Below are positions 1-31,048 of a stretch of DNA of 64,000 bases, one piece after another. Where the stretch lies: the IMG/VR virus record IMGVR_UViG_2675903278_000002; one strand, 5' to 3'. The DNA is from a virus (lineage: Duplodnaviria; Heunggongvirae; Uroviricota; Caudoviricetes). Positions within the stretch are counted from its first letter, which is position 1. The number at the start of each line of letters is the position of its first letter. Made by a program: the position numbers and the translations under genes. The notes under the pieces are model-generated. The model was not told the DNA's origin and searched no databases. It saw only the letters and a list, made by a program, of their open reading frames with translations.

Positions 1-26
1 GGTGGTTCAAACTGGCTACGGTTACC

Positions 27-3000
27 ATGCCACAAGCGAGTTCCATCGTTTACATCGCATTGATTGGTGGCGCTGGTTACAACGTCGGTTCCCCACATCA
101 GGCAGGCATTTCAGAACTGGTTCTACGAGCAGGCAATGGAAACCCCAAAGGAATTACCGGGGCTTTGTGGAAGCGTACAGCCGTCGGATTAACGAATTTC
201 GCCTGGATCAACACATCCGGCGATACATATGATATTTACGTTGAGATTGGCAATTATGCGACGAGTGTAAATATCCATTGGGATTGTACTGCAAATGCGA
301 CAGTTTCTATTTATACATCGCCAACATATTCAGCGAGTAAGCCTTCCAGCGTTACCGATGGTGTTGTTTATACGATGTATAGCACACATCAGAAACCGAC
401 GCCGTTAGATATTGGAGCACTGCCAACAACCGGAGGAACAGTTTCAGGTCCGTTGTCTGTTACAGGTGGATTAACTGGTTCATTGAATGGTAATGCAAGT
501 ACAGCCACGAAATTGCAGACGGCAAGAACTATCGGCGGCGTGAGCTTTGATGGTACTGCGAATATTAATTTGCCAGGTGTTAATACGACTGGTAATCAGA
601 ATACAACGGGCAACGCTGCAACCGCTACAAAACTACAGACAGCGCGTACAATCAACGGTGTTAAGTTTGATGGTTCTGCGGACATAACGCTGACTCCTGC
701 GAACCTTGACGTATACAGCAAAAGCGAAATAGACAATAAAAAAGGGATGAGAAAATACACTTTTTCAGCGCCTGCAAATGCAGTAAGCGGTAAGTGGTAT
801 CCTATAGTCTTTCGCCGATCTGGAGGCAATACCGATGAATTAGCCTCACGAGTTGTGATAACTACTTATTCCTCAGCTGGCGGATACGCCATGAATAATT
901 GTGAATTTAATGGGTTTGTTATGCCTGGCGGTTGGTCTGATCGCGGTTCATATGCGGCTGGTTTTTTCTCAATATATTCTACTGCTGAGCGAGCTATACA
1001 CTCGATTATTTCAGGTGTGAAAGATGACGATTTGTGTAGTGTATTTTACGTTGAAGCCAGAGCATTCCCTATCAAGATATTTGCTGAGGAGGGCTTGAAC
1101 GTAATTGTTCCAACGGCTGATTATGCAGTTGGTCAAACCACTTATAAGTGGGGGGCAACTGATCCTTTATCAGAAAGTACGAATGCACAGATAATTTTGG
1201 ACTTTAAAAATGGACGAGGTTATTACTGTTCACATCCATTTATTTCAAGTCTTTCAGGAAATGCTGCTACAGCAACGAAATTGCAGACTGCAAGAACTAT
1301 CGGCGGCGTGGCCTTCGATGGATCTGCGAACATAAATTTGCCTGGTGTAAACACGGCAGGTAATCAGAATACAACGGGCAACGCGGCTACTGCTACGAAG
1401 TTGCAAACAGCGAGAAACATCAATGGTGTTAAGTTTGATGGCTCAGGCGATATCAACATTAATACACTGGTATCTCGTGGCCGAGTTACGGCGTTAAGCG
1501 GCTCTACTCAAGGCACTGCTGGCATTCAAATGTATGAGGCGTACAACAATAGCTACCCGACCATGTATGGCAACGTATTGCACATGAAAGGTGCGAGTGC
1601 TTCTGGTGAGGGCGAGATGCTTGTTGGCTGGAGCGGAACGGATGGTGCTCATGCACCGGTTTATGTTCGTTCACGCCGTGATACTTCGACAGCGAACTGG
1701 TCTGGCTGGGCGCAGATCTACACAACTGCTCATAAACCCACAGCGAAAGATGTTGGGGCCGCGCAAGCGTTTAGCGCGTCTTACAGCACAGGGGCTGGCA
1801 ATTGGACTACCGCTGAATTTATCGCATGGCTGAAGGAGCGTGGTGCTTTCGAAGTGCCGTACTGGATGATGAAGGGTTCCTGGTCATATGCCGACAATAA
1901 AATTATCACTGATACAGGTGTCGGCAATATCTGTCTTGCTGGTGCGGTTATCGAGGTTTTAGGTACCGAAGGCGCAATGACCATCCGAGTTACTACGCCT
2001 ACAACGACGACCGGTGGTGGGATTGCCTGTGCTCAGTTCACCTATATTAATCACGGTAGCGCGTATGCCCCTGCCTGGCGCAGAGATTACAACACGACTC
2101 TCAAACCCACTGCGGCTGATGTCGGTGCGTTGCCGAGCGGTGGCGGCACACTTTCCGGCGCACTCACATTATCTATGGCTGCGCCAAGTGTCCAGTTACG
2201 AGGGCAAGGTACGGACACCAGACAGTACATCATGGCTTACAGAACCGATGGCGCTACATCATGGTATGTGGGCAAGGCTAACAACGGCTCCGATAATGCG
2301 ATGTTCTGGAACTATACCGGCTCCAACGGAATTGAATTGGCTGCCGATGGCAATGTGCGTATTAATGCGAAGGGTAAACAGTTTACGTTCGCAAACAATG
2401 GGAACTTAGGTCTTGTTGCTTCGTTGGATCAGAGTTCAGTTCCACAGGGTACTTACCATCAAGTAGCTCTTAACACTGGCACTGTTGGTGGTAAATCGTA
2501 CCTTCGAAAATTCCGCGGCGGCAACACAGACACCATTTGGCATGAGACGGTTCAGGGCGGCTTCCTTCGTTGGGCAACCGGCAATGCTGATGAGCAAGAA
2601 GAACTGTCTATCAGTACTGGCTATGGTGTTCGAGCAAGAGGTGAAATCACTTCCCTTAGCGCCAATGGTCTAAGAGTGGCTTACGGGAATTACGGCTTCT
2701 TTATTCGCAATGATGGCGGAACAACTTACTTCTTGCTGACTGCTTCTGGCGACAAGTTCGGAAGCTGGAATGCTTTGCGTCCAATGTACATTAACAACGC
2801 TTCAGGCGCGGTTACGATGGGGAACGGGTTGTCGCTTGCCGGTGGCTTAAATGTCACGAGCGGAAATATCCGAATCCCGACGTCGAGTACATCTTGGATC
2901 GACATGAGAAACAATGCCGCTCTGTCTAACAGTTCTGCGGTTGCCACTTCCTCTGCATCGGCCATTATTCGTCAGGAGCACGCCGATCGTCATTATTTTG

Positions 3001-3437
3001 TTGGTGGTTTAGGCAACTCTCAGTTCGGGTTCTACATGATTAACAAGTCACGAACCGCGAACGGCACGGATGCGAACGCATACCTCCAGAATGACGGTAC
3101 TTGGGTTTGCGGCGGTAATGGCAGCTTTAATGACGTTTATATCCGTTCTGACCGCCGTAGTAAGCGCAATATTCGCAAGATTGACCGGGCGCTCGACAAG
3201 CTGGAGCAGATCGAAGGTGTTCTCTACGAGATTCAGGTCTGTGGCCGTTATGAGCAGTCTGGTGGCCTCATCGCTCAGGATGTCCAGAATGTTCAACCTG
3301 AACTGGTAACGGTCGACCATAACGATCAGTCAGGAGAGCCTCGTCTGCGTCTTAACTACAACGGCGTTATCGGCATGTTGGTTGAGGCTGTCAAAGAGTT
3401 GCGCGAGGAAGTGCGCGAACTGAAGGCAAAAATGTAA
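27..3437 (+). CDS. Phage tail fiber protein with fiber repeats and C-terminal intramolecular chaperone (peptidase S74-like) domain; reading frame is open upstream to the window edge, so probably 5' partial
   Basis: 1136 aa ORF; duplicated NAATATKLQTARTIGGV(S/A)FDG(T/S)ANINLPGVNT motif typical of phage tail fiber repeats; C-terminal SDRRSKRNI ... LVEAVKELREEVRELKAKM resembles the autoproteolytic chaperone domain of endosialidase and L-shaped tail fibers; no stop codon between position 3 and the ATG at 27. Confidence 0.8.
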   Translation: MPQASSIVYIALIGGAGYNVGSPHQAGISELVLRAGNGNPKGITGALWKRTAVGLTNFAWINTSGDTYDIYVEIGNYATSVNIHWDCTANATVSIYTSPTYSASKPSSVTDGVVYTMYSTHQKPTPLDIGALPTTGGTVSGPLSVTGGLTGSLNGNASTATKLQTARTIGGVSFDGTANINLPGVNTTGNQNTTGNAATATKLQTARTINGVKFDGSADITLTPANLDVYSKSEIDNKKGMRKYTFSAPANAVSGKWYPIVFRRSGGNTDELASRVVITTYSSAGGYAMNNCEFNGFVMPGGWSDRGSYAAGFFSIYSTAERAIHSIISGVKDDDLCSVFYVEARAFPIKIFAEEGLNVIVPTADYAVGQTTYKWGATDPLSESTNAQIILDFKNGRGYYCSHPFISSLSGNAATATKLQTARTIGGVAFDGSANINLPGVNTAGNQNTTGNAATATKLQTARNINGVKFDGSGDININTLVSRGRVTALSGSTQGTAGIQMYEAYNNSYPTMYGNVLHMKGASASGEGEMLVGWSGTDGAHAPVYVRSRRDTSTANWSGWAQIYTTAHKPTAKDVGAAQAFSASYSTGAGNWTTAEFIAWLKERGAFEVPYWMMKGSWSYADNKIITDTGVGNICLAGAVIEVLGTEGAMTIRVTTPTTTTGGGIACAQFTYINHGSAYAPAWRRDYNTTLKPTAADVGALPSGGGTLSGALTLSMAAPSVQLRGQGTDTRQYIMAYRTDGATSWYVGKANNGSDNAMFWNYTGSNGIELAADGNVRINAKGKQFTFANNGNLGLVASLDQSSVPQGTYHQVALNTGTVGGKSYLRKFRGGNTDTIWHETVQGGFLRWATGNADEQEELSISTGYGVRARGEITSLSANGLRVAYGNYGFFIRNDGGTTYFLLTASGDKFGSWNALRPMYINNASGAVTMGNGLSLAGGLNVTSGNIRIPTSSTSWIDMRNNAALSNSSAVATSSASAIIRQEHADRHYFVGGLGNSQFGFYMINKSRTANGTDANAYLQNDGTWVCGGNGSFNDVYIRSDRRSKRNIRKIDRALDKLEQIEGVLYEIQVCGRYEQSGGLIAQDVQNVQPELVTVDHNDQSGEPRLRLNYNGVIGMLVEAVKELREEVRELKAKM
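481..700 (+). repeat. Copy 1 of an approx 210 bp intragenic duplication in the tail fiber gene (second copy at 1260..1470)
   Basis: Near-identical nucleotide and peptide segments encoding GNA(S/A)TATKLQTARTIGGV.FDG.ANINLPGVNT.GNQNTTGNAATATKLQTAR.INGVKFDGS. Confidence 0.7.
1260..1470 (+). repeat. Copy 2 of the tail fiber intragenic duplication
   Basis: Direct comparison with 481..700 in the sequence. Confidence 0.7.
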
Positions 3438-3503
3438 TCAAGGTGAATGGTGAGGGGCCACCCTCACCAATTCAGGATATTCACATCAAAAAGGAGATTA
3501 GAT

Positions 3504-4286
3504 GTGCCAATTGTCGGTGTTCCCGGTTGGATTGGGTCTTCGGCTGTCAGTGTGACAGGCCAGAGATGGATGAGTGCGGCTCGAACGGCGGTGCAACTGC
3601 CAGCGGCTGGTTCAATGTCTCAAATGGCCGGGCGATCTAAAGAAGTTCAGTACAGCATCGGTGCGAATCATAACTACAACAAAGACACACTGATCAACTA
3701 TTTAAAATCCCAGGGGGCGACGCCAGTCGTTGTTACCATTACAGGGGATCTGGTGTCGTCCAGTAGCGGCGTGCCATGTTTAGATTTCCCGAGTTCACTT
3801 ACCAACTCTTATATCAGCCTTGTAATCAACGCAGGTGTGACTGTCTATGGACGCGGTGGCAATGGTGGTAGTAACGCTGCCGGTGCTGCTGGTGGTAACG
3901 CAATTAATAATGGCATCGGTACACGCTTGCGTATTACGAATAATGGTGCAATCGCTGGAGGTGGTGGCGGCGGTGGCGGTGGTAACAGGGGTAAACTAAT
4001 ATTTGGTGGTGGCGGTGGTCGCCCATTCGGTGCTGGTGGGTCTTCCTCTCATATGAGTTCCGGTGCAACTGCTGGTACTATTTCCGCTCCTGGTAAAGGA
4101 TCTGTTGGTGAGGGGTCTCTTAGTGCATATACAGGCGGTTCGGGTGGTAATGTCGGTGCTGCTGGAGGAAGATGTAATACTCAAGGTAACGGTACAGAAT
4201 ATAACGGCGGGGCAGCTGGTAAAGCCGTAACTGGCAACGCGCCTACATGGACTAAAGCTGGGGCAATTTACGGCGCTCATGTGTAA
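3504..4286 (+). CDS. Glycine-rich hypothetical protein, possibly tail-fiber associated; proposed GTG start
   Basis: ORF 3447..4286; AAGGAG at 3491..3496 sits 7 nt upstream of GTG 3504; long poly-Gly tracts (GGGGGGGGGN, GGGGG); lies between tail fiber and lysis genes. Confidence 0.45.
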   Translation: MPIVGVPGWIGSSAVSVTGQRWMSAARTAVQLPAAGSMSQMAGRSKEVQYSIGANHNYNKDTLINYLKSQGATPVVVTITGDLVSSSSGVPCLDFPSSLTNSYISLVINAGVTVYGRGGNGGSNAAGAAGGNAINNGIGTRLRITNNGAIAGGGGGGGGGNRGKLIFGGGGGRPFGAGGSSSHMSSGATAGTISAPGKGSVGEGSLSAYTGGSGGNVGAAGGRCNTQGNGTEYNGGAAGKAVTGNAPTWTKAGAIYGAHV

Positions 4287-4360
4287 GTACTTACCTACCA
4301 AGTGTGGGCGTTTTATGATATAAAACCGCCATCCCGATTTGACTTTTCATGGAGGAAAAC

Positions 4361-4684
4361 ATGTCGAACGAGATGGCGGGCGTTACAACAGAGCAAGTTG
4401 AGCGTATTGCCGCGATCGTTGCTCGGGAGGTTGTTGGCAAATTAGGTAAAGAGCTACGTGAAGAAATTGGCCAGGAGGTCAATGATCAGCTGAAAACCTA
4501 CTTTGGTGATATGACCCCGGCGCAACATAGTATTCAACACTCCAATCTGGACAAACTCCTTAACCGGTTAGATTCCATCTCAAGTGGGTTCTTTGGCGGC
4601 ATTGTTTCTAAAATAACGTCGTTCATTATTACCGCACTGCTTTTGGGGTTAGCCGCGTATGGCGTAAAAAGTGGACTGCAATAA
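4361..4684 (+). CDS. Small membrane protein, holin candidate
   Basis: GGAGG RBS before ATG 4361; hydrophobic C-terminal segment ITSFIITALLLGLAAYGV; immediately upstream of the putative endolysin. Confidence 0.4.
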   Translation: MSNEMAGVTTEQVERIAAIVAREVVGKLGKELREEIGQEVNDQLKTYFGDMTPAQHSIQHSNLDKLLNRLDSISSGFFGGIVSKITSFIITALLLGLAAYGVKSGLQ

Positions 4685-4697
4685 CAGGAGATCAAGG

Positions 4698-5390
4698 ATG
4701 AAAACTCCGAGAGGCATTCGTAATAACAACCCTGGCAACCTCGACAAAGGTTCGCCGTGGCAGGGGCTAATCGACAACCCTGCCGAACCGCGCTTTTGCA
4801 CGTTTAAAGACCCTGTTTGGGGGATTCGTGCGCTGGCGGTGACTCTAATTACCTACCACGACAAACGTCGCGCAAAAGACGGCTCAAGTATCGATACCAT
4901 TCGTGAAGTTATTGAACGTTGGGCACCGCCGAATGAAAACAATACTGACGCCTACATTAATGAGGTGTCTAAAGCCGTTGGTGTAACCGCAGACATGATT
5001 ATCGATCTGCATGATTACGACATTCTTCGACCTTTGGTTGAGGCAATCATTCGCCATGAGAATGGGCGAGGTCCGCTAAAAACGCTGAACACCTGGTATG
5101 CGGCAGAAGTTATTGAGGAAGGTCTGCGTCGAGCTGGCGTTGTTAAGCCGGCGAAAACCGTGAAGGCTGTTCCTGTAACTAAAGAAACCGCAGGCGCAAC
5201 TGTTACAGCAGGTATTGGTCTGGCGCAGCTGGCCGATGTTATGCCGCAGGTTTCCGCTGCTATGGATAAAGCACAAGGTCATATCTCTAGCGGGGATACA
5301 GTACGCATCATCTTCGGTATTGCCACTATTGTTGTGGCAGGATTCATTGCCTGGTCGCAGGTAAGAAAACACCAGAAAGGGATGGTCTAA
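4698..5390 (+). CDS. Putative endolysin or peptidoglycan hydrolase (family not assigned)
   Basis: AGGAG RBS before ATG 4698; N-terminal GIRNNNPGNL motif; gene order small membrane protein - this gene - i-spanin - o-spanin matches a canonical lysis cassette; C-terminal hydrophobic segment is atypical. Confidence 0.45.
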   Translation: MKTPRGIRNNNPGNLDKGSPWQGLIDNPAEPRFCTFKDPVWGIRALAVTLITYHDKRRAKDGSSIDTIREVIERWAPPNENNTDAYINEVSKAVGVTADMIIDLHDYDILRPLVEAIIRHENGRGPLKTLNTWYAAEVIEEGLRRAGVVKPAKTVKAVPVTKETAGATVTAGIGLAQLADVMPQVSAAMDKAQGHISSGDTVRIIFGIATIVVAGFIAWSQVRKHQKGMV

Positions 5391-5391
5391 T

Positions 5392-5643
5392 ATGCTAGGC
5401 AGCCTGATGACAAAGCTAAAAGTTGCTTTGATTACGCTGGCTGCCGTTCTTTTCGTTCTTGTCGGCGCTTACACGATGGGCGGGAATGCGGCGCGACGAG
5501 CAATGGAAGAGAAGGCAAAACAGGAAGACAGAAAACGACTTCAAAACACAGTGAAAGTGGTGAATGAGACGAGCAGTAAAATACGTCAGAAAGATGCTTC
5601 TGCCGTTCATCGTGAGTTGTATGATAAGTGGGTGCGTCATTAA
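5392..5643 (+). CDS. i-spanin (Rz-like inner membrane spanin subunit)
   Basis: N-terminal transmembrane helix LKVALITLAAVLFVLVGAY followed by a charged coiled-coil-like region; start overlaps the upstream stop; contains the o-spanin gene in another frame. Confidence 0.6.
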   Translation: MLGSLMTKLKVALITLAAVLFVLVGAYTMGGNAARRAMEEKAKQEDRKRLQNTVKVVNETSSKIRQKDASAVHRELYDKWVRH

Positions 5644-5779
5644 ACCACAAACAGCCAGCGTGTTGTTCTGCGATGGGGCTGAGCCTATCTATATCAGCAA
5701 TAATGATGTAATGACTGAAGAAACCGAACGCCAAATCCTTTTTCACAATACGATGGGAGAGAGGGTTTGTGGTTGGTGA
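5594..5779 (+). CDS. o-spanin (Rz1-like outer membrane lipoprotein), overlapping the 3' end of the i-spanin gene
   Basis: MLLPFIVSCMISGC signal peptide with lipobox cysteine; out-of-frame overlap with 5392..5643, the classic Rz/Rz1 arrangement. Confidence 0.55.
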   Translation: MLLPFIVSCMISGCVIKPQTASVLFCDGAEPIYISNNDVMTEETERQILFHNTMGERVCGW

Positions 5780-5811
5780 TGTCGAAGTTCCCCTCAAATG
5801 AGGGGAACACA

Positions 5812-6333
5812 TTATTCTTCGAACAATTTTTCGATAGATTTTGTAGGATAGAACAAAGAACGCTCGTTGTTACCAACCAGCTGGATAAAGCCTAAACTTT
5901 TATAAAACGCCTTGGCTTTGTCATTTAACGCCTCAACGAAAAGTCCATGAATGCCTACAGCAAGAGATGCATTGTACACAACGCGCATTGCATGTGTTAC
6001 AAGCATTGAGCCAAATCCTTGACCTTGAAGGGACTTGTCCAAAGCCAGCCTACCCAAAGTAACACTTGGAACATTCCGATAAGGAACCTTCTTTTGTTTG
6101 CTTCTTGAAGGTAAGGACTCCTTTTCAAAACAACTACCTGACAAAGTGTAATATCCTAACACTTTTGGCCTTTCTTCTTGAGTGCAAAGCACATAAGCAC
6201 GAAGAATTTTTCCCTCATGCTGCCTTTTTAAGTGGTTGGCTAAAAAGGCGTTTAGTGACTCTTCGCCGCAATCAAAACCGTTTAGATCATAATCTTTCTC
6301 TCCAGAGAAAATCTCTATCGTTGTATTGCTCAC
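5812..6333 (-). CDS. GNAT-family N-acetyltransferase toxin (TacT-like)
   Basis: 173 aa; acetyltransferase-like core (QGQGFGSMLV, FY motif); directly downstream of and co-oriented with a DUF1778-like antitoxin gene. Confidence 0.7.
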   Translation of the reverse strand: MSNTTIEIFSGEKDYDLNGFDCGEESLNAFLANHLKRQHEGKILRAYVLCTQEERPKVLGYYTLSGSCFEKESLPSRSKQKKVPYRNVPSVTLGRLALDKSLQGQGFGSMLVTHAMRVVYNASLAVGIHGLFVEALNDKAKAFYKSLGFIQLVGNNERSLFYPTKSIEKLFEE

Positions 6334-6340
6334 GAGTAAA

Positions 6341-6610
6341 CTACTCCATGCTTTTCAGACGATCAGCAGCTCGTTTCAGCTTGTCGTTCGGTGCCGGAGG
6401 ATTGCTTATAGCGTCCATAACCAGATTCCAGGATTCTTCATTCAGAACTAGTCTACGGTGTTGCTCTATAACTTTCACGGCACGTTCAGATGCACTGCTA
6501 ACCATAAACTGAGTAATGCTCTGGTTAGACATTGCGGCAGCTTCCTCGATGATGCTTTTATCGTCATCGGTTAATCTCAAATCGATGCGCTGCTTTTTTA
6601 GTGCTGACAT
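6341..6610 (-). CDS. DUF1778 (TacA-like) ribbon-helix-helix antitoxin
   Basis: MSALKKQRIDLRLTDDDKSIIEEAAA... matches DUF1778 antitoxins; GGAGG RBS before the ATG at 6610; 7 nt gap to the toxin gene. Confidence 0.7.
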   Translation of the reverse strand: MSALKKQRIDLRLTDDDKSIIEEAAAMSNQSITQFMVSSASERAVKVIEQHRRLVLNEESWNLVMDAISNPPAPNDKLKRAADRLKSME

Positions 6611-6928
6611 GTATTCCTCCTGATGGCCGTGATGTAGGAAGGCCATCAATCTCCTCTGTTCAAACTGAGTTTTCGACTCAAAAATTACTTTAAAAGGCTA
6701 TAGCCCATTACGTGTGCATTATCAAATTGTGTACGGCATATCACCGTACTTGTAATATAGAGGTCATTGTTACTTTTTTCAACAGACAAATACAAGCTAT
6801 GATTGCCAATTGTTAATCACAACCTACCATTTAACCTTTACACCGCAGCCGTAGGCATTTAGGCTATATCACATATAAGAAAACAAGTTGTTTCAGACGA
6901 TAATTATATACGCAAAGGGAACTCTCCA

Positions 6929-7597
6929 ATGACCAAGATCTTTGTGGTTGGCGGCACAAAGGGCGGGCCTGGCAAATCCACCGTTGCCCAGCAAATTGCC
7001 GTTTGCCTGAAAGTCAAAAAGAAGAAGAAGGTTTATATTACCGATATAGATATTCAGCGCACGACAACGAGCTGGTGTGAAGACCGTCGACAGAACGAAG
7101 ACCTTGAGCTGATTCCTTTTGCATACGTTCAGGATGACATCATTAAGCACCTAAAATCGCTTCAGGGTAGAGCTGAGTTTGTAGTGGTAGATGCTGGTGG
7201 CTTCGACTCCGAAATTCAGCGACAAGCGATGCTGATGGCTGACGTTATCATTATCCCGCTGCGTCCTAAGCGTCGTGATTTGAAATCTTTACGTGACATC
7301 GATCCTATTATCGACAATGTTCGCAATGTAAACGATAAAGTGAAGGTCCGCGCGGTCATGAACCAGTGCCCGGCTTTGCCATCACAAGTGTCTCGCATTC
7401 TGGCGGCTAAAGAGATTGTTGAGACGTTTGGAATCGAGTCTGCGCCAGTCAATCTATATAACCGCAACGTCTATGATGATGCGGAAGAGTCTGGTCGTTC
7501 TATCTTTGAAATGACCGGTAGCGAGCGCGACAAAAAGGCGGAAGCCGAGTTTGAAGAATTTGTAGATTATCTGTTGAGTCTGGAGGAAGAAGAATAA
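6929..7597 (+). CDS. parA: ParA-family partition ATPase (small type Ib)
   Basis: Deviant Walker A GGTKGGPGKST; 222 aa; followed by a small RHH protein gene. Confidence 0.85.
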   Translation: MTKIFVVGGTKGGPGKSTVAQQIAVCLKVKKKKKVYITDIDIQRTTTSWCEDRRQNEDLELIPFAYVQDDIIKHLKSLQGRAEFVVVDAGGFDSEIQRQAMLMADVIIIPLRPKRRDLKSLRDIDPIIDNVRNVNDKVKVRAVMNQCPALPSQVSRILAAKEIVETFGIESAPVNLYNRNVYDDAEESGRSIFEMTGSERDKKAEAEFEEFVDYLLSLEEEE

Positions 7598-7956
7598 TGT
7601 CCATGAAAATGGGTGACCTAGCAAAGCGCAAAGAGCCTGATGCACCGGCTAAGAACACAACTCCTTTGCGCCAACCAGTCAGACCACAGGGACGCCCGAC
7701 TCGTGGCAAAGAGAAAATTAAAAGCCGCACAATGTCACTGGAGGACGAATACTTCGAACTGCTGGAGATGATGAAGTTCATCCCTCGCTTCGAGAAGTTC
7801 ACTCGTTCTGACGTGATTCGAGCAGCCATTTTCCATCTGGCAGAGAAGTCACCGCAGGAAATCGAGGACATCGTGAAATTGAATGAGGCGATCACCGCTG
7901 CCGATGTCACGATGCGTACCGATGAAATTAAACGCGAGTTGATGAAGAAAGGGTGA
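7597..7956 (+). CDS. Partition centromere-binding protein (ParG/ParB-like, ribbon-helix-helix)
   Basis: Start overlaps parA stop; basic disordered N-terminus plus C-terminal RHH-like segment MSLEDEYFELLEMM...RSDVIRAAIFHLAE. Confidence 0.5.
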   Translation: MSMKMGDLAKRKEPDAPAKNTTPLRQPVRPQGRPTRGKEKIKSRTMSLEDEYFELLEMMKFIPRFEKFTRSDVIRAAIFHLAEKSPQEIEDIVKLNEAITAADVTMRTDEIKRELMKKG

Positions 7957-8007
7957 TTATATTGGGCGTTTGTTACGCCCAATATATGAGTTGAAGGATA
8001 GACACCA

Positions 8008-9714
8008 ATGGAATCGATAGAAGTATTTTTAAAAAATTTTTTGGACTCAGATCATCGGGTTGCTGTCATAAAAGGAAATTGGGGAGTAGGTAAAACGCAT
8101 TATTGGAATAGCTTTTATACTAAACATTCTAAAAAATTAGATTTTAATGCATATTCATATGTTTCTTTGTTTGGAATAAATTCTATTGGAGACATTAAAA
8201 AAGCTCTTTATCATTGTGCCACACCAATTAATGAAAAGAAATATAAAGAACTGATTTTATCTGAAACGGATCGAACTATGATTCGTTATAGAAATGGGTT
8301 TTGGGGATGGTTGAAATACAACTCCTTGTCAAAATTTTTAATACATTTTGGAAAGAACGATTTTTTTGGGTTCAAAACTGATAATCTGCTGTCATCTCTT
8401 GAGTATAAATTTGTTAATAATTATTTGGTTTGCATTGATGATATTGAACGAAAAGGTAGTGCGCTAGAAATTAAAGAGATTATGGGGGTAATTGATGAGT
8501 TGGCAAGAAGAAAAAATTGCAAGGTTGTTCTAATATTAAATGAAGATAACTTACATGAAGAAACTGCACAACAACAGTTTTTAGAGTATAGAGAAAAAAT
8601 AATTGATGTGGAAATAAAATACGATCCCACGCCTGAGAAAAACTTAAGAAAAGTTTTTTATGAGACTGACCCTGATTTTCTTTTGTTAAAAAACCTAGTA
8701 AATGATTTAAACATCAAAAACATTAGAATATTAAATAAAATAAAATCATCTCTAGTTATATTTAGAGATGTGCTAAAGTTAGCAGAGGATAAGGTTAGAG
8801 AAAGTTTTATTAATAGATTGGTCTTATTTTCAGTGGTTTACTATTTTGGTGTTCCTAGCGTTGATTATGCTTCATTTAAGGAGTCAATCAAAAATATACA
8901 TGCATTCGACTATATGTTAGATGATAAAGATGAAAAGGAAGAAGTTAACTCTGTATATTCATTTGTTAATAGCCTTGATGTTATTTATGAACGAGCAGAA
9001 AGTGCTTTCGATGATGATATAGATTTTTACCTTAAGAACGGTTATGTTTCTTCTGAAAGCAATATTCTAAATATAATAAAAGAAAAAAATGAACAATATA
9101 GAGATAATAGGGTTTTATGTGAGGTTTATAAAATTTGGGATGTTTTTAGAAACTCTTTTAAAGATAATGAATCAGAGTTTATTTTTCAAATTGAGCGCGT
9201 AATTAACGATAGTCTGTTGCGTATACCAATTGGACAGTTCGTAGGTTTAATAAATGTCCTAATTAAATTGGATAGAGATTGTAATAATATTATAGAGGCA
9301 TATGCAGATGCTTTTGTTAATAAAGACAATGCGTATGCTACATTTAATTCTTTGCGAGTAGAGATCTTCGGAAATGAAGAATTAGGTTTCAGAATTGAAA
9401 AAAAATTGAAAGATAGAAATCCAGATGACTATAACTTAGATAAAATTATAAAAAAAATAGCTGGTGGAAGATTTAACCATAGTGATGTGAATATTCTTAA
9501 CAGTTTTTCTAAAGATGATTACGTAAACTGGATATTATCCTGTGATCAGGATGCTTTGAATTTAGTAGAAGAGACTATGCTCAAGTTCAAGGGTATGCAA
9601 CACCCGACAGACGAACAGAAGAGCATCACTGATAAAGCAATAGAAGCTTTGGAGGAAGTTGCTTCAAAATCAACACTTAATAAGCTGCGTGTTAATAAAA
9701 TACTCAATCATTAA
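8008..9714 (+). CDS. KAP-family P-loop NTPase
   Basis: Walker A GNWGVGKTHYW near the N-terminus, diagnostic of KAP NTPases; 568 aa; coding sequence visibly far more AT-rich than neighbours. Confidence 0.75.
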   Translation: MESIEVFLKNFLDSDHRVAVIKGNWGVGKTHYWNSFYTKHSKKLDFNAYSYVSLFGINSIGDIKKALYHCATPINEKKYKELILSETDRTMIRYRNGFWGWLKYNSLSKFLIHFGKNDFFGFKTDNLLSSLEYKFVNNYLVCIDDIERKGSALEIKEIMGVIDELARRKNCKVVLILNEDNLHEETAQQQFLEYREKIIDVEIKYDPTPEKNLRKVFYETDPDFLLLKNLVNDLNIKNIRILNKIKSSLVIFRDVLKLAEDKVRESFINRLVLFSVVYYFGVPSVDYASFKESIKNIHAFDYMLDDKDEKEEVNSVYSFVNSLDVIYERAESAFDDDIDFYLKNGYVSSESNILNIIKEKNEQYRDNRVLCEVYKIWDVFRNSFKDNESEFIFQIERVINDSLLRIPIGQFVGLINVLIKLDRDCNNIIEAYADAFVNKDNAYATFNSLRVEIFGNEELGFRIEKKLKDRNPDDYNLDKIIKKIAGGRFNHSDVNILNSFSKDDYVNWILSCDQDALNLVEETMLKFKGMQHPTDEQKSITDKAIEALEEVASKSTLNKLRVNKILNH

Positions 9715-9722
9715 TAGATTAT

Positions 9723-9789
9723 GACCTGCTTCCGTATGTATTTAATAAGTTACTTATTATTTGTATATACAGAAGCAGGTCTTTTAAAG
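9723..9789. terminator. Large hairpin (10 bp stem GACCTGCTTC/GAAGCAGGTC, AT-rich 39 nt loop) followed by TTTTAAAG; putative terminator; same stem sequence recurs at 56751..56815
   Basis: Inverted repeat read directly in sequence downstream of the KAP NTPase stop. Confidence 0.4.
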
Positions 9790-9895
9790 ACACCCACCAG
9801 AACAAGTCCCTTCCGTTTCCACTTCCAAAAACTGCCACCAGTCGCTATCATCCGCTCATTGTGATAAGTAAGTAACTACCTACCAGGTGAGCCAC

Positions 9896-10636
9896 ATGAG
9901 CCAAATCTTTTTCGATACCATCGACAACGACCAGTACGACTTCATGACAGAGTGGAATACCGCTGTTATGGACAAGTGGGTTGCTGAAAACATTGGTTTG
10001 TCGCGCTGCAAAGACGAGGCTGAACTGTTTGAGACGAAGTGGTTTGATTACCGCGATATGCATCCTCTCATGGCCACCTGTCTGTTTACGGAGGCATACA
10101 AACGTCAGTACTCAAATATCATGCTGACGCACGGTCGTGAACACTTTGAAACAGCTCCGTTCACCACCGGGTTAAAACGCTTGCCTTATCAGGAGTTGTC
10201 GACTGCTAATAAAACGTCGCTATGGAAAGCACGCCAGTTTGCGGATCGCTATTGCTGCTCATACGACTACTTTATCTCCACTGTTCTTTCCGCAGCTGCA
10301 CGACGTCTGTGGGACAAGCTGCCTCGCCCACAGCATTTGTGGCAGCCAGAACTGATTGAGATATTTGAAGAGAAATTAGCCAGACGCGCAACAACCCGTC
10401 TGGATGACTCTCTGGTTAGCTTTAAGCATATGGGAGACATGCAGTTCAACCCGATTCAGGAAAGCTATTTTGAGTGGATTCTGGAGCGTTTGCGCACCAT
10501 CCCTCGCAGCAAGCGCATACGCGCAATTTTCTCCGCTATCTGGCTAATGGAAATCGTTCCAGAGCGCCTTATTTCCGACCACTTTCCAGAAGAACTGGAA
10601 GAAGCACGGCGGTTTATTGATCCCCTATCTAATTAA
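9896..10636 (+). CDS. Hypothetical protein
   Basis: ORF 9887..10636; AGGTGA RBS-like sequence 5 nt before ATG 9896. Confidence 0.5.
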   Translation: MSQIFFDTIDNDQYDFMTEWNTAVMDKWVAENIGLSRCKDEAELFETKWFDYRDMHPLMATCLFTEAYKRQYSNIMLTHGREHFETAPFTTGLKRLPYQELSTANKTSLWKARQFADRYCCSYDYFISTVLSAAARRLWDKLPRPQHLWQPELIEIFEEKLARRATTRLDDSLVSFKHMGDMQFNPIQESYFEWILERLRTIPRSKRIRAIFSAIWLMEIVPERLISDHFPEELEEARRFIDPLSN

Positions 10637-10679
10637 CTAATACTAGAAAACAATTTGTTTAAAAAACAAAGGAAAGCAC

Positions 10680-12020
10680 ATGACCGAACTTTGCCATACA
10701 GGACGCGGGCTGTCCGAAGAGTTTGATGAAGATTTCCAGAACAGACTGACGGCATATTTTTGTCGTGATCACGAGTTTCTTACTCGTGCGGGAGATCTGG
10801 TTGTGCCTAGCCAATTTGCCAATGCGGCCAATGCCATATTGGTTAATATGGTTTCGGGCTATTACCGTATGTACAAGAGCGCGCCCTCTTCATCTGCAAT
10901 TCTGGATATGCTTAAGCGTGCGAAACGCGATAAGACTATCCGTGAGGAACTATTCGCCGATGTTGTTGCTGCGTTTAAGCGCATCCTTGCAGAAAAATTG
11001 TCCGATACCTCGTACATGGTTGACCAGGTATCAACCTTCGCAAAAAGCGTAGCGTTTGATGATGCTCTGATTAAGGCTGCTGAACTGAAAGAGAAGGGCG
11101 ACTTTCAGGGGGCGATGGCAATCATGGCCAAGGTTCAGCAGATTGGATCGAACGAAGCGACCGGAATCTATGACTACTACACCTCCGCAAGTGAGCGATT
11201 GAAAGCGCGTGAATATGAGGCTTCAGAGGAGTATGTACCAAACAGTATTACAACTGGACTCCCTCTTCTCGATAGGTTGCTGTACCAAAAAGGCTGGGCA
11301 AAGCGCGAAATGGTGCTCTTCATGGGGTTCGCTAAATCCGGTAAATCGACCGCAATGGGTGAGTTTTCCATAAACGCAACGCTTGCTGGCTACAATGTTC
11401 TGTATCTCTCGCTGGAGGTTCACACCAACATTTTGTCCGACCGTTTTGATGCAAGATTGTCGGAGACGGAAATGTCCAAGTTGGTGGAACGGCGCGATGA
11501 AGTTCATCGTAAGTTGGCAGAGTTGGGAGCCTCTAAGGGGATTGGTAGTTTGTGGGTTGTTGAGCGTCCGTCAGGAAGTATGTCACCGGCAGATCTGGAC
11601 CGTATGCTTAACAGCATGAAAGCCAACGGCATGGTGCCTGATATGGTTGTTGTCGACTACGCAGATTTGATGCGTGCCAGTTATGACCTTCGTGATGATC
11701 GCGCCAACATTCGTAGTATCTACACCGATTTACGTGCTCTTTATGACAAACATAACGTTGCTGGAATCACGGCATCGCAGACAAACCGTGAAGGTGGCGC
11801 GTCAGAAGTTGCCACAATGATGCACGCCGCCGATAACATCGAAAAAGTACGTATTGCTGACCTGGTAATAACGATCAACAAAACCGAAGAAGAAGAAGCG
11901 AAAGGAGAGGCTCGTCTCTACTTTGCTGGTTCACGTAACCAGCAGGGTGGGATCAGCATTCGCGTTAAACAAAACCTCGAACAAATGCGTTTCATTGAGC
12001 GAATCTTAGACGTTACCTAA
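10680..12020 (+). CDS. DnaB-like replicative DNA helicase
   Basis: Walker A GFAKSGKST in a RecA-like C-terminal domain; 446 aa; adjacent to primase. Confidence 0.8.
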   Translation: MTELCHTGRGLSEEFDEDFQNRLTAYFCRDHEFLTRAGDLVVPSQFANAANAILVNMVSGYYRMYKSAPSSSAILDMLKRAKRDKTIREELFADVVAAFKRILAEKLSDTSYMVDQVSTFAKSVAFDDALIKAAELKEKGDFQGAMAIMAKVQQIGSNEATGIYDYYTSASERLKAREYEASEEYVPNSITTGLPLLDRLLYQKGWAKREMVLFMGFAKSGKSTAMGEFSINATLAGYNVLYLSLEVHTNILSDRFDARLSETEMSKLVERRDEVHRKLAELGASKGIGSLWVVERPSGSMSPADLDRMLNSMKANGMVPDMVVVDYADLMRASYDLRDDRANIRSIYTDLRALYDKHNVAGITASQTNREGGASEVATMMHAADNIEKVRIADLVITINKTEEEEAKGEARLYFAGSRNQQGGISIRVKQNLEQMRFIERILDVT

Positions 12021-17579: not shown

Positions 17580-17654
17580 GATGGTGTAGCTCAGCGGTAG
17601 AGCAGTTGGCTGTTAACCAACTGGTCGGTGGTTCGAATCCACCCACCATCGCCA
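17580..17654 (+). tRNA. tRNA-Asn (anticodon GTT)
   Basis: Manual fold: 7 bp acceptor stem GATGGTG/CACCATC, D-arm TAGCTCAGCGGTAGAGC, anticodon loop CTGTTAA, T-loop GGTGGTTCGAATCCACC, 3' GCCA. Confidence 0.75.
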
Positions 17655-17656
17655 AT

Positions 17657-17732
17657 GCCGGTTTAGCTCAGTTGGTAGAGCGCCTGCCTTGTAAGCAGGA
17701 TGTCAGCGGTTCGATCCCGTTAACCGGCACCA
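17657..17732 (+). tRNA. tRNA-Thr (anticodon TGT)
   Basis: Manual fold: acceptor GCCGGTT/AACCGGC, D-arm TAGCTCAGTTGGTAGAGC, anticodon stem CCTGC/GCAGG with loop CTTGTAA, T-loop GGTTCGATCC, 3' ACCA. Confidence 0.75.
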
Positions 17733-18052
17733 ACACAACAGGTAAGAGCATTGGGCGAATCGGCGATACTGACCCACAAGCCCGTAAATCGATAGAGTCA
17801 GACCAGTGCTCTTACCGTTGTGAGGAAGTGCAGCTCTTTGAAGCAACCAGAAGATAAGCATCTGGCTTCACAACACAACGATAAGATCATTACGGTTAAT
17901 CGTCGTTCATGTGCACAATGACTGGTCGAAAGGTAGTGATCTTACCGTTGTGATGAATGCACAGGCTGATGTGCCGCAACTACAGTAGTGCGCGCTTTGC
18001 GGGGCTTGCTACAACCCTGTGTCGGAGTTCAGCACCGACCATCACAATAGCT

Positions 18053-18139
18053 GGAGAGTAGGGAGCATGGTGCTCAAGCGGTCTTGAAATCCGTCCCATT
18101 GTGCAAACGATGATGGTTCGATTCCATTACTCTCCGCCA
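18053..18139 (+). tRNA. Class II tRNA with long variable arm, most likely tRNA-Ser (anticodon TGA); anticodon stem imperfect
   Basis: Acceptor GGAGAGT/ACTCTCC, T-loop GGTTCGATTCC, 3' GCCA, long variable region; anticodon loop CTTGAAA only with a mismatched closing pair. Confidence 0.55.
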
Positions 18140-30232: not shown

Positions 30233-30503
30233 AGAATTATGGCGCTTGTTGAGGAAGTCACTCCTCTTACGCACTTTGTTTTGCCATGCCGGCAGTTAGC
30301 TTCTGCCTTTGACTATTCATGCGGCAACCCCGCATTTCGCCACAATGGGCAATTCACTTTTATGGAATAAACTGGCCGTTGTGTCGATTTAATTAGCATG
30401 GCCTTACCATGCTAATTTATTCAACTTGTACAATCCTGCAAATCTATCCACTCAGGCTTACACCGTCTTCGTTATTGTAGAAATGAGGATCATCAGCGTT
30501 GAA

Positions 30504-30719
30504 TCAGCTTAGAGCAACGACATTTGCTGCTGCTGGGCCTTTAGCCCCATTCTCGATAGAGAATTCGACCTGCTGGCCTTCTTCCAAAGTGCGGAAATTA
30601 TTACTCTGAATTGCCGAAAAATGTACAAAAACATCTTTACTGCCATCAGCAGGAGAAATAAAGCCAAAGCCTTTATCAGAGTTAAACCATTTTACTAAAC
30701 CAGTCATTTTATTAGACAT
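30504..30719 (-). CDS. cspA: Cold-shock protein (CspA family)
   Basis: [21 protein letters not shown]... RNP1-like motif; 71 aa from the internal ATG at 30719. Confidence 0.85.
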
Positions 30720-31048
30720 AGATATTACCTTCTTAATTTTGTGAGCCACATAGTGCGGCGAGAATTTGATCTGTATAGATTGGGACTTACTTAGGCACTT
30801 AAGGAGGAGACTCACGAAGAAGGGAAATCAGAAGATAACACTGAACTGAGACTGCTTTACTAAAACTGCTTACATAAGGTCTGTCTTGCAAACCAACGAT
30901 GCTATTAACGCATACCCCTTCTTTTCATGCAACCTTTATTTTTCAAAGATAACTAATTTTTGTCACCATTGGTTTAGTAAACGTTAACGAACCAGACGAT
31001 GCCAGACACCTTTACAGAGAACAGATGCCCGCCAATTGGCGGGCATCA

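What the first reader, a model, noticed from the sequence alone, without database searches (positions are those of the whole stretch)
5812..6610. GNAT toxin / DUF1778 antitoxin (TacAT-like) module next to the partition locus
Co-oriented gene pair with antitoxin first and toxin second, a 7 nt intergenic gap, sizes 89 and 173 aa, and motifs of DUF1778 RHH antitoxins and GNAT acetyltransferase toxins. Likely an addiction module stabilising the plasmid state; such modules can also act in phage defence.
Basis: partly seen in the sequence, partly recalled or inferred. Interest (0 to 1): 0.55.

Follow-up and report, generated by a model that had tools for sequence, protein, structure and literature searches.

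The report
AtaRT/KacAT-type toxin-antitoxin on a phage-plasmid
This is an ordinary, already annotated two-gene toxin-antitoxin module (a tRNA-acetylating GNAT toxin and its DUF1778 antitoxin) on an SSU5-like E. coli phage-plasmid, most likely helping the plasmid prophage to be kept by its host.

Summary
On the minus strand, an 89-aa antitoxin (6341-6610) lies 7 nt upstream of a 173-aa toxin (5812-6333), and both are divergent from parA (6929-7597).

- **Family support:** The antitoxin hits Pfam TacA1/DUF1778 at E=6e-26. The toxin hits GNAT models. Solved structures place the pair in the AtaRT/KacAT clade: the toxin is 70% identical to AtaT, and the antitoxin is 80% and 76% identical to KacA and AtaR.
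- **Functional residues:** Catalytic Y144 and AcCoA-site G108 are kept, as are the antitoxin's DNA-reading R8, D10 and R12.
- **New detail:** I located the promoter and a GTACGG-N7-CCGTAC operator at 6731-6749. It has the same arms as the crystallised KacAT operator and is invariant across seven homologous loci compared besides the window, five of them divergent.
- **Prior knowledge:** The DNA is 100% identical to phage-plasmid Cyrano (pLF82 of E. coli LF82). There the genes are already annotated as KacT toxin and antitoxin, and they were shown to be transcribed in lysogeny.
- **Distribution:** 152 of 5,426 complete E. coli genomes carry the module, always on plasmids.

Toxicity, tRNA acetylation and an addiction role are inferred, not tested. 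A phage-defence role has no support. Verdict: already known, low interest.

The parts
6754..6782 (-). Predicted sigma-70 promoter of the antitoxin-toxin operon: -35 TTGAAA (6777-6782), 17-nt spacer, -10 TATATT (6754-6759)
   Evidence: Consensus scan, 10 of 12 matches. The TTGA of the -35 box and the TAT..T pattern of the -10 box are conserved in the five-locus alignment of divergent homologues, while the flanking sequence is not. No transcription start was mapped here.
6731..6749 (.). Operator palindrome GTACGG-N7-CCGTAC, the predicted binding site of the antitoxin RHH dimers, immediately downstream of the -10 box
   Evidence: It is the only match in the 64 kb window, with 0.04 expected by chance. 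The arms equal those of the crystallised KacAT operator TGTACGGTTATTAACCGTACA (PMC6698736) and of the chromosomal ataRT upstream region. The arms are invariant and the spacer variable in all loci compared. Binding was not tested.
6616..6621 (-). Shine-Dalgarno AGGAGG of the antitoxin gene, 5 nt before the ATG
   Evidence: Read directly from the sequence.
6341..6610 (-). Antitoxin gene (89 aa): DUF1778/TacA family, N-terminal ribbon-helix-helix and C-terminal toxin-binding region; homologue of AtaR and KacA
   Evidence: Pfam PF08681 E=5.7e-26. PDB: KacA E=6.6e-42 (80% identity), AtaR E=1.3e-40 (76%). R8, D10 and R12 (operator contacts in KacA) and M65, I68 are kept; positions 70 and 77 are N and K, as in AtaR. 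dN/dS is 0.04 or lower. Identical to RefSeq WP_001351987.1.
5812..6333 (-). Toxin gene (173 aa, GTG start): GNAT acetyltransferase of the AtaT/KacT clade, predicted aminoacyl-tRNA N-acetyltransferase
   Evidence: Pfam GNAT models above their cut-offs. PDB: AtaT E=1.4e-79, gapless, 70% identity; KacT E=3.9e-75. G108, Y144, Y85, R95, F30, L27, K79, K81 and K82 are kept; R40E, N41G, R71K, K77R and A26S differ. dN/dS is 0.05-0.18. Identical to RefSeq WP_000072677.1. PHROG 1758 acetyltransferase, E=2.3e-52.
5787..5808 (.). GC-rich hairpin (9-bp stem, 4-nt loop) between the converging ends of the lysis cassette (Rz1 ends at 5779) and the toxin gene; probable two-way terminator
   Evidence: The terminator scan finds it on the + strand. 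RNA fold is -18.6 and -18.3 kcal/mol on the two strands, z = -4.3 and -3.8. The T-run is weak on the minus strand, so termination of the TA transcript there is inferred.

Best explanation
This is a functional type II toxin-antitoxin operon of the AtaRT/KacAT clade of the GNAT/DUF1778 family. It is carried as accessory cargo between the lysis cassette and parA of an SSU5-like E. coli phage-plasmid.

Proposed mechanism, by homology:
1. The operon is transcribed in lysogeny from the promoter at 6754-6782.
2. The antitoxin dimerises through its N-terminal RHH. Its C-terminal region wraps the toxin and blocks the acetyl-CoA and substrate site.
3. A toxin-antitoxin4-toxin heterohexamer sits on the GTACGG-N7-CCGTAC operator over the transcription start and represses the operon. 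An excess of toxin derepresses it (conditional cooperativity).
4. If the antitoxin is not replenished, for example in a daughter cell that lost the plasmid prophage, host protease (Lon, by analogy with GmvAT) removes it.
5. The freed toxin dimer then uses acetyl-CoA to acetylate the alpha-amino group of charged tRNAs and halts translation. The likely targets are Gly-tRNA plus hydrophobic or aromatic aminoacyl-tRNAs and initiator Met-tRNA, as for AtaT and KacT.
6. The net effect is that cured cells stop growing, which stabilises the roughly 110-kb low-copy element alongside ParA.

Shown here: gene structure, family and clade membership, conservation of catalytic and DNA-reading residues, the operator, purifying selection, and exclusive plasmid location. 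Shown by others on identical DNA: transcription in lysogeny. Inferred: toxicity, tRNA targets, Lon dependence and post-segregational killing.

My confidence that it is an active AtaRT/KacAT-type TA is about 0.9. My confidence that plasmid-prophage maintenance is its main role is about 0.6.
For: - Pfam TacA1/DUF1778 and GNAT hits.
- E=1e-79 and 4e-75 to AtaT and KacT, and 7e-42 and 1e-40 to KacA and AtaR, full length.
- 70%, 80% and 76% identity to AtaT, KacA and AtaR. Y144, G108, Y85, R95 and K79/81/82 are kept in the toxin, and R8/D10/R12 in the antitoxin. The roles of these residues come from PMC7595197 and PMC6698736.
- Operator unique in the window, matching the KacAT crystal operator and the ataRT upstream region, and invariant in arms across divergent loci.
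- dN/dS of 0.04-0.18 in both genes.
- 100% identity to Cyrano/pLF82, where CYRAN_26 and CYRAN_27 are transcribed 35-fold and 60-fold above the local prophage background in lysogeny, and where the copy number is about 5.5.
- 152 of 5,426 complete E. coli genomes carry the module, all on plasmids, against 239 genomes with the same lysis cassette.
- Clade A toxins (AtaT, KacT) acetylate Gly-tRNA and hydrophobic aminoacyl-tRNAs (PMC9177977).
- A GNAT/RHH pair (GmvAT) stabilises pINV in a Lon-dependent way (PMC6519299).
Against: - No experiment on this allele was found. Toxicity, neutralisation, tRNA acetylation and plasmid stabilisation are all untested.
- Five tRNA-contacting or pocket residues differ from AtaT (R40E, N41G, R71K, K77R, A26S), so the tRNA range could differ.
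- About a third of E. coli elements with the same lysis cassette lack the module, and SSU5 itself has other genes in this slot. The module is therefore dispensable for maintenance.
- The element also has ParA and, according to the Cyrano paper, a HicAB pair.
- Thirty per cent of E. coli chromosomes carry ataRT with the same operator arms. That could blunt post-segregational killing if the antitoxins cross-neutralise.
Confidence: 0.8

Rival explanations
1. Main role is abortive infection or defence. Infection by a competing phage shuts off host or plasmid transcription, or triggers antitoxin loss. The freed toxin then stops translation and blocks the invader, protecting the phage-plasmid's host population.
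For: The module sits among variable accessory genes. The next slot, after parA and its partner gene, holds a low-GC KAP NTPase that matches the candidate defence family PDC-S49. Several other type II TA systems and tRNA-targeting toxins are known defence effectors (established knowledge; abstracts listed).
Against: Neither protein hits any of the 5,027 PADLOC models. No paper showing defence by a GNAT/DUF1778 pair appeared among the top-ranked results of the library search. The SSU5 phage-plasmid survey that screened with DefenseFinder does not mention this module in the passages read.
Confidence: 0.1
2. Main role is stress response or antibiotic tolerance for the host (a lysogenic-conversion trait). 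Transient toxin activation produces growth-arrested, drug-tolerant cells, as reported for KacT in Klebsiella.
For: KacT halts growth and induces antibiotic tolerance according to PMC9431474 and PMC6698736. The identical module is expressed in lysogens of the pathogen LF82, which persists in macrophages.
Against: There are no data for this allele. A persistence role for type II TAs is contested in general (established knowledge). Exclusive plasmid location fits selfish maintenance better.
Confidence: 0.07
3. Interaction module with the chromosomal ataRT. The plasmid antitoxin and the chromosomal AtaR share an operator and may cross-repress or cross-neutralise. The pair would then act in anti-addiction or in competition between elements rather than as a stand-alone addiction system.
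For: Chromosomal ataRT is present on 1,626 E. coli chromosomes. 1,925 places fall in 1,854 genomes with at most two places each, so 71 genomes hold two copies. The operator arms and the antitoxin residues R8, D10 and R12 are identical. A plasmid-borne GNAT-family antitoxin alleviating a chromosomal toxin was observed in Klebsiella.
Against: The antitoxin is only 76% and the toxin 70% identical to AtaR and AtaT. Three Salmonella TacAT paralogues do not cross-react. Nothing was tested here.
Confidence: 0.05
4. The GNAT protein is not a growth-arresting toxin in its native setting but a protein or small-molecule acetyltransferase, or the pair is decaying.
For: AtaT has been reported to acetylate a protein, EspB Lys206 (abstract of PMC7957018, listed). 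GNAT folds are functionally versatile (established knowledge).
Against: Full-length, gapless 70% identity to a proven toxin with all catalytic residues and most tRNA-binding residues kept. Tight pairing with a conserved antitoxin and operator. Strong purifying selection on both genes.
Confidence: 0.03

Closest known systems
AtaR-AtaT of enterohaemorrhagic E. coli O157:H7 (PDB 6AJM, 6GTS; chromosomal, between livJ and panM)
   Same: - Same two-gene order and 7-nt gap, and near-identical sizes (AtaR 88 aa, AtaT 175 aa).
- Toxin 70% and antitoxin 76% identical, aligned without gaps.
- G108, Y144, Y85, R95 and the lysines of helix alpha3 are kept.
- Same operator arms, GTACGG-N7-CCGTAC.
   Different: - Chromosomal rather than phage-plasmid borne.
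- The operator lies about 55 nt from the ATG in ataRT, against 139 nt here.
- Five tRNA-contact or pocket residues differ (R40E, N41G, R71K, K77R, A26S), so target range may differ.
- Only about 66% nucleotide identity.
KacA-KacT of Klebsiella pneumoniae HS11286 (PDB 5ZGN, 5XUN)
   Same: - The antitoxin is closest to KacA (80% identity, E=6.6e-42), and the toxin matches KacT at E=3.9e-75.
- R8, D10 and R12, which read the operator, are kept.
- The crystallised 27-bp operator has the same arms and 7-nt spacer length, and also lies over the transcription start.
   Different: - KacAT is chromosomal, in another genus.
- The spacer sequence differs (TTATTAA against TGATATG).
- KacA Q70 and R77 are N70 and K77 here, as in AtaR.
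- Conditional cooperativity was shown for KacAT only.
TacA-TacT (Salmonella) and GmvA-GmvT (Shigella pINV): the wider GNAT/DUF1778 family
   Same: Same Pfam families and operon layout. GmvAT is the experimental precedent for a GNAT/RHH pair stabilising a large low-copy plasmid through Lon.
   Different: These are much more distant. Outside the AtaT/KacT group, the other solved GNAT-toxin chains match only at E=1e-21 to 5e-4. Published phylogeny places TacT, TacT2 and GmvT in clade D, with near-exclusive Gly-tRNA specificity, whereas AtaT and KacT are in clade A with relaxed specificity.
Phd-Doc of phage-plasmid P1 (functional analogue)
   Same: A type II addiction operon on a plasmid prophage, antitoxin first, autoregulated by conditional cooperativity (mentioned in PMC6698736; otherwise established knowledge).
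   Different: The proteins and chemistry are unrelated: Doc is a Fic-family kinase of EF-Tu (established knowledge), not a GNAT acetylating aminoacyl-tRNA.

Membership tests
GNAT/DUF1778 (TacAT-AtaRT-KacAT) type II toxin-antitoxin family | Toxin has the GNAT acetyltransferase domain with an acetyl-CoA-binding motif | tested here: met
   PF13508, PF00583 and PF13673 all score above their gathering cut-offs. Q/RxxGxG-type motif QGQGFG at residues 103-108, with G108 kept.
GNAT/DUF1778 (TacAT-AtaRT-KacAT) type II toxin-antitoxin family | Antitoxin is a DUF1778/TacA protein (N-terminal RHH, C-terminal toxin-binding region) | tested here: met
   PF08681, E=5.7e-26, profile positions 1-79 of 80. Full-length alignment to KacA and AtaR.
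GNAT/DUF1778 (TacAT-AtaRT-KacAT) type II toxin-antitoxin family | Bicistronic operon, antitoxin upstream, short gap | tested here: met
   6341-6610, then a 7-nt gap, then 5812-6333, on the same strand. Co-transcription was not measured here. Both genes are transcribed in Cyrano lysogens.
GNAT/DUF1778 (TacAT-AtaRT-KacAT) type II toxin-antitoxin family | Catalytic tyrosine (AtaT Y144, KacT Y145) | tested here: met
   Y144 is present in a gapless alignment to AtaT. Its role is taken from PMC7595197.
GNAT/DUF1778 (TacAT-AtaRT-KacAT) type II toxin-antitoxin family | Autoregulation through a palindromic operator bound by the RHH | tested here: inconclusive
   The sequence evidence is strong: a unique GTACGG-N7-CCGTAC next to the -10 box, with arms invariant across loci and equal to the KacAT and ataRT sites, and R8/D10/R12 kept. 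Binding and repression cannot be tested with these tools.
GNAT/DUF1778 (TacAT-AtaRT-KacAT) type II toxin-antitoxin family | Toxin arrests growth and the cognate antitoxin neutralises it | not testable with these tools
   This needs expression assays. No paper testing this allele was found.
GNAT/DUF1778 (TacAT-AtaRT-KacAT) type II toxin-antitoxin family | [quoted passage not shown] | not testable with these tools
   Inferred from 70% identity to AtaT and from conserved tRNA-contact residues. LC/MS would be required.
AtaRT/KacAT clade (clade A of PMC9177977) | Closest relatives are AtaT and KacT rather than TacT, ItaT or AtaT2 | tested here: met
   AtaT and KacT match at E=1e-79 to 1e-74. All other solved GNAT-toxin chains match at E=1e-21 or weaker. 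No formal tree was built.
Plasmid addiction (post-segregational killing) module | Located on a low-copy extrachromosomal replicon and expressed in the carrier state | tested here: met
   All 152 E. coli occurrences are on plasmids. The module lies next to parA. Cyrano has a copy number of about 5.5, and the identical genes are transcribed in lysogeny.
Plasmid addiction (post-segregational killing) module | Labile antitoxin and stable toxin; loss of the replicon arrests growth; the module raises plasmid stability | not testable with these tools
   The only support is an analogy: GmvAT stabilises pINV and a test vector in a Lon-dependent way.
Known or candidate anti-phage defence systems (PADLOC-DB v2) | Protein matches a defence-system model | tested here: not met
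   Zero hits for the toxin and zero for the antitoxin at E<=0.01. This shows only that the pair is not catalogued, not that it cannot defend.

The most novel reading that the evidence does not exclude
The phage-plasmid copy may be tuned to interact with the host's chromosomal ataRT or with rival SSU5-like elements. Three observations leave this open:
- It shares the exact operator arms and DNA-reading residues with chromosomal ataRT, which is present in about 30% of E. coli.
- Its toxin diverges faster than its antitoxin. The same slot in a Citrobacter phage-plasmid keeps an 88%-identical antitoxin with only a 62%-identical toxin.
- It faces the late lysis operon head-on across a single hairpin.

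The module could therefore act in cross-regulation, anti-addiction or exclusion between elements. It could also be switched by convergent late transcription during induction, rather than being a simple stand-alone addiction cassette.
Probability: 0.1. Interest if true: 0.45.

Novelty: already known. Interest (0 to 1): 0.12.

Why it matters
It matters little as a discovery. Both proteins are in RefSeq (WP_000072677.1 and WP_001351987.1). The identical locus is annotated as a KacT-type toxin with antitoxin in the published phage-plasmid Cyrano/pLF82. The family's structure, chemistry and regulation are well worked out.

There are three modest points of value:
- The annotation can be sharpened from "GNAT / DUF1778" to "AtaRT/KacAT clade", with a defined promoter and operator.
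- The module is a common but dispensable cargo of E. coli SSU5-like phage-plasmids, found in about 64% of complete genomes that carry the same lysis cassette. These elements are clinically relevant carriers of accessory genes.
- Many hosts carry a chromosomal paralogue with the same operator, which makes cross-talk between a phage-plasmid TA and a host TA directly testable.

Tried and rejected
- **Longer antitoxin start (ATG 6646, 101 aa, as in the ENA Cyrano record).** Rejected. AtaR and KacA start at the position of ATG 6610, RefSeq uses that start, it has the stronger AGGAGG Shine-Dalgarno, and the upstream ATG is absent in distant homologues.
- **Structured leader RNA in the roughly 135-nt 5' UTR.** The fold is no better than shuffles (z = 0.05). 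There is no Rfam family at gathering score in this region, and the sequence is not conserved outside the promoter and operator.
- **Defence-system assignment.** No PADLOC hit.
- **Direct repeats (iterons or centromere) between the antitoxin gene and parA.** None were found, only short palindromes.
- **NCBIfam.** It gave only sub-threshold hits for both proteins, so it was not used for assignment.
- **Deliberately not run.** I did not use the large protein-database searches, structure prediction or fold search. Identity of 70-80% to solved structures and identical RefSeq proteins made them unnecessary.
- **Exact source record of the window.** I did not pin it down. The best plasmid match over 1-12000 is NZ_CP020118.1, at 96% coverage and 95.8% identity. 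The TA region itself is 100% identical in several records.
Full report
**1. What is in the sequence.**
Both genes lie on the minus strand.

| Feature | Coordinates | Notes |
|---|---|---|
| Antitoxin gene | 6341-6610 | 89 aa; ATG at 6610; stop TAG at 6341-6343 |
| Shine-Dalgarno | 6616-6621 | AGGAGG, 5 nt before the ATG |
| Gap | 6334-6340 | 7 nt |
| Toxin gene | 5812-6333 | 173 aa; GTG start; stop TAA at 5812-5814 |
| Hairpin | 5787-5808 | 9-bp GC-rich stem |

The hairpin sits between the toxin's stop and the end of the converging Rz1 spanin gene at 5779. It folds at about -18 kcal/mol on either strand, z about -4. Upstream, 318 nt separate the antitoxin start from the divergently transcribed parA-type ATPase gene at 6929-7597.

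**2. Family and clade.**
- The antitoxin matches Pfam TacA1 (DUF1778, PF08681) at E=5.7e-26 over essentially the whole model.
- The toxin matches three GNAT models above their gathering scores.
- Against sequences of solved structures, the toxin aligns without gaps over 172 residues to E. coli O157:H7 AtaT (E=1.4e-79) and to K. pneumoniae KacT (E=3.9e-75). All other solved GNAT-toxin chains match at 1e-21 or weaker.
- The antitoxin aligns full length to KacA (E=6.6e-42) and AtaR (E=1.3e-40).
- Identities are 70% to AtaT, 80% to KacA and 76% to AtaR.

So "TacAT-like" is right at family level. More precisely, the pair belongs to the AtaRT/KacAT clade, which is clade A of PMC9177977. Tested members of that clade acetylate Gly-tRNA and tRNAs charged with hydrophobic amino acids.

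**3. Functional residues.**
I used the residue roles reported for AtaT (PMC7595197) and KacA (PMC6698736).
- Kept in the toxin: G108 (acetyl-CoA site), Y144 (catalytic), Y85, R95, F30, L27, L136, H34, R37, S76, S78, K79, K81, K82, P84 and K165.
- Changed in the toxin: R40E, N41G, R71K, K77R and A26S. Activity is therefore expected, but the exact tRNA range cannot be read from the sequence.
- Kept in the antitoxin: R8, D10 and R12 (operator reading) and M65 and I68 (toxin contact).
- Positions 70 and 77 of the antitoxin are N and K, as in AtaR.

**4. Promoter and operator (a detail added here).**
A sigma-70-like promoter lies on the minus strand: TTGAAA at 6777-6782, a 17-nt spacer, and TATATT at 6754-6759. 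Immediately downstream is GTACGG-TGATATG-CCGTAC at 6731-6749. This pattern occurs once in the 64-kb window, against 0.04 expected by chance.

The 27-bp operator crystallised with KacAT is AAATGTACGGTTATTAACCGTACATGA. It has the same arms and spacer length, and it is described as spanning the transcription start. The chromosomal ataRT of O157:H7 has GTACGG-TGACATA-CCGTAC upstream of ataR.

I compared seven other loci whose toxins are 62-100% identical to this one. All have the same arms next to a -10-like box. In the five-sequence alignment (the window plus four divergent loci), the arms, the TTGA of the -35 box and the TAT..T pattern of the -10 box are the only conserved blocks in an otherwise 51%-identical upstream region. 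This phylogenetic footprint supports autoregulation of the KacAT/AtaRT kind. Binding itself is inferred.

The resulting leader of about 135 nt shows no significant fold (z = 0.05) and no Rfam match at gathering score in this region.

**5. Selection.**
Against two natural alleles (91.6% and 96.5% nucleotide identity), dN/dS is 0.05-0.18 for the toxin and 0.04 or lower for the antitoxin. Both genes are therefore maintained as coding genes.

The toxin diverges faster than the antitoxin in every comparison. In p09EL50 the toxin has dS 0.164 against 0.018 for the antitoxin, which suggests recombination inside the operon.

**6. Genomic setting.**
The surrounding genes are a tail fibre, a receptor-recognising protein, holin, endolysin, Rz and Rz1, then parA and its partner gene, a DnaB-like helicase and a primase.

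- Window 5400-7000 is 100% identical to Escherichia phage Cyrano (OV696614), which is plasmid pLF82 of the adherent-invasive E. coli LF82 (NC_011917).
- Window 1-12000 matches about 106-113-kb, mostly non-mobilisable E. coli plasmids at 95-97%. The element is therefore an SSU5-like phage-plasmid.
- SSU5 itself carries two genes of unknown function in the slot between Rz1 and parA.
- A Citrobacter phage-plasmid has, in the same slot, an 88%-identical antitoxin with only a 62%-identical GNAT toxin.
- The module has about 41-43% GC against about 49% in the flanking lysis genes.

It is thus accessory cargo in a variable slot.

**7. Distribution.**
| Search | Result |
|---|---|
| Module at >=90% nucleotide identity | 152 of 5,426 complete E. 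coli genomes, every copy on a plasmid |
| Same endolysin/Rz cassette | 239 genomes (so about 64% carry the module) |
| Relatives at about 68-70% in PLSDB | several hundred plasmids of Enterobacteriaceae; 285 of the 574 matching records are conjugative |
| Chromosomal ataRT at about 66% | 1,626 E. coli chromosomes |

From,925 places fall in 1,854 genomes with at most two places each, so 71 genomes hold two copies.

**8. What was already known.**
- RefSeq annotates the identical proteins as "GNAT family N-acetyltransferase" (WP_000072677.1) and "DUF1778 domain-containing protein" or "type II toxin-antitoxin system TacA family antitoxin" (WP_001351987.1).
- The Cyrano record calls them "KacT Acetyltransferase-type toxin" (CYRAN_26) and "putative antitoxin" (CYRAN_27).
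- PMC9928086 lists them among genes transcribed in lysogeny, at 35-fold and 60-fold above the local prophage background. The same paper reports about 5.5 plasmid copies per cell and ciprofloxacin-inducible virion production.
- PHROGs holds both families.

I found no experiment on the toxicity or stabilising effect of this allele.

**9. Mechanism.**
By homology, the antitoxin and toxin form a T-A4-T heterohexamer that blocks the toxin's active site and represses the promoter through the operator. When the antitoxin is not replenished and is degraded, the toxin dimer acetylates charged tRNAs and stops translation.

Several points favour post-segregational stabilisation as the main role:
- The replicon is a low-copy plasmid prophage.
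- The module sits next to the partition genes.
- The identical locus is transcribed in lysogeny.
- GmvAT of pINV is a Lon-dependent GNAT/RHH stabiliser.
- Phd-Doc of P1 is a functional analogue on another phage-plasmid.

Two points count against an essential role. A third of related elements lack the module. Chromosomal ataRT with the same operator could interfere.

**10. Rivals.**
- Phage defence has no support from PADLOC or from the top-ranked results of the literature search. The neighbouring low-GC KAP NTPase does match a candidate defence family.
- Roles in tolerance or persistence, cross-talk with ataRT, or a non-toxic acetyltransferase function remain possible at low probability.

**11. 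Verdict.**
The feature is already known and annotated, so interest is low.

Noticed in passing
window 8008-9714 (+): A 568-aa KAP-family P-loop NTPase with 28-30% GC, against about 49% in the backbone. It matches the PADLOC candidate defence family PDC-S49 (E=1.5e-21) and phrog_4740. The slot after parA and its partner gene holds different genes in relatives: an 804-nt hypothetical gene in Cyrano, a GIY-YIG LEM-3-like gene in pBL12EC-1, and DUF2971 in SSU5 and a Citrobacter element. It looks like a second variable, possibly defence, hotspot.
   Followed up: partly
window 7597-7956 (+): This 119-aa gene starts at the last base of parA's stop codon. The Cyrano record annotates it as 'RelE/ParE putative toxin', but it has no Pfam hit and only phrog_5111 (unknown function). 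By position it is more likely the centromere-binding partner of ParA, so the published toxin label is doubtful.
   Followed up: partly
window 6800-6819: A 20-bp imperfect palindrome, TGATTGCCAATTGTTAATCA, overlaps the -35 box of a predicted parA promoter. It lies back-to-back with the TA promoter and may be the par operator or centromere-like site.
   Followed up: no
window 17580-18139 (+): Three tRNA genes on the phage-plasmid: Asn-GTT, Thr-TGT and Ser-TGA. This is curious on an element that also carries an aminoacyl-tRNA-acetylating toxin. AtaT was reported to acetylate some Asn-tRNA in vivo. I did not examine any link.
   Followed up: no
window 30479-30897 (-): A full-length match to the cspA thermoregulator 5' UTR (Rfam RF01766, 185.7 bits). 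This implies a cold-shock-protein gene with its RNA thermosensor on the phage-plasmid.
   Followed up: no
window 6611-6646 (-): An in-frame upstream ATG at 6646 has its own GGAG and would add 12 residues (MAFLHHGHQEEY). An 8-bp perfect inverted repeat (6621-6628 and 6641-6648) lies just before the main Shine-Dalgarno. Both are conserved only in close alleles.
   Followed up: partly
L009 1377-1450; E. coli chromosomes generally: Chromosomal ataRT (between livJ and panM) is present on 1,626 E. coli chromosomes. It has the same operator arms, GTACGG-N7-CCGTAC, as the phage-plasmid module. 1,925 places fall in 1,854 genomes with at most two places each, so 71 genomes hold two copies. Cross-repression or cross-neutralisation is possible.
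   Followed up: partly
L006 2472-3269 (Citrobacter phage-plasmid) and L005 (p09EL50): In this clade the toxin diverges faster than the antitoxin: 62% against 88% amino-acid identity in the same slot of a Citrobacter element. In p09EL50, dS is 0.164 in the toxin against 0.018 in the antitoxin, which suggests recombination breakpoints inside the operon.
   Followed up: partly
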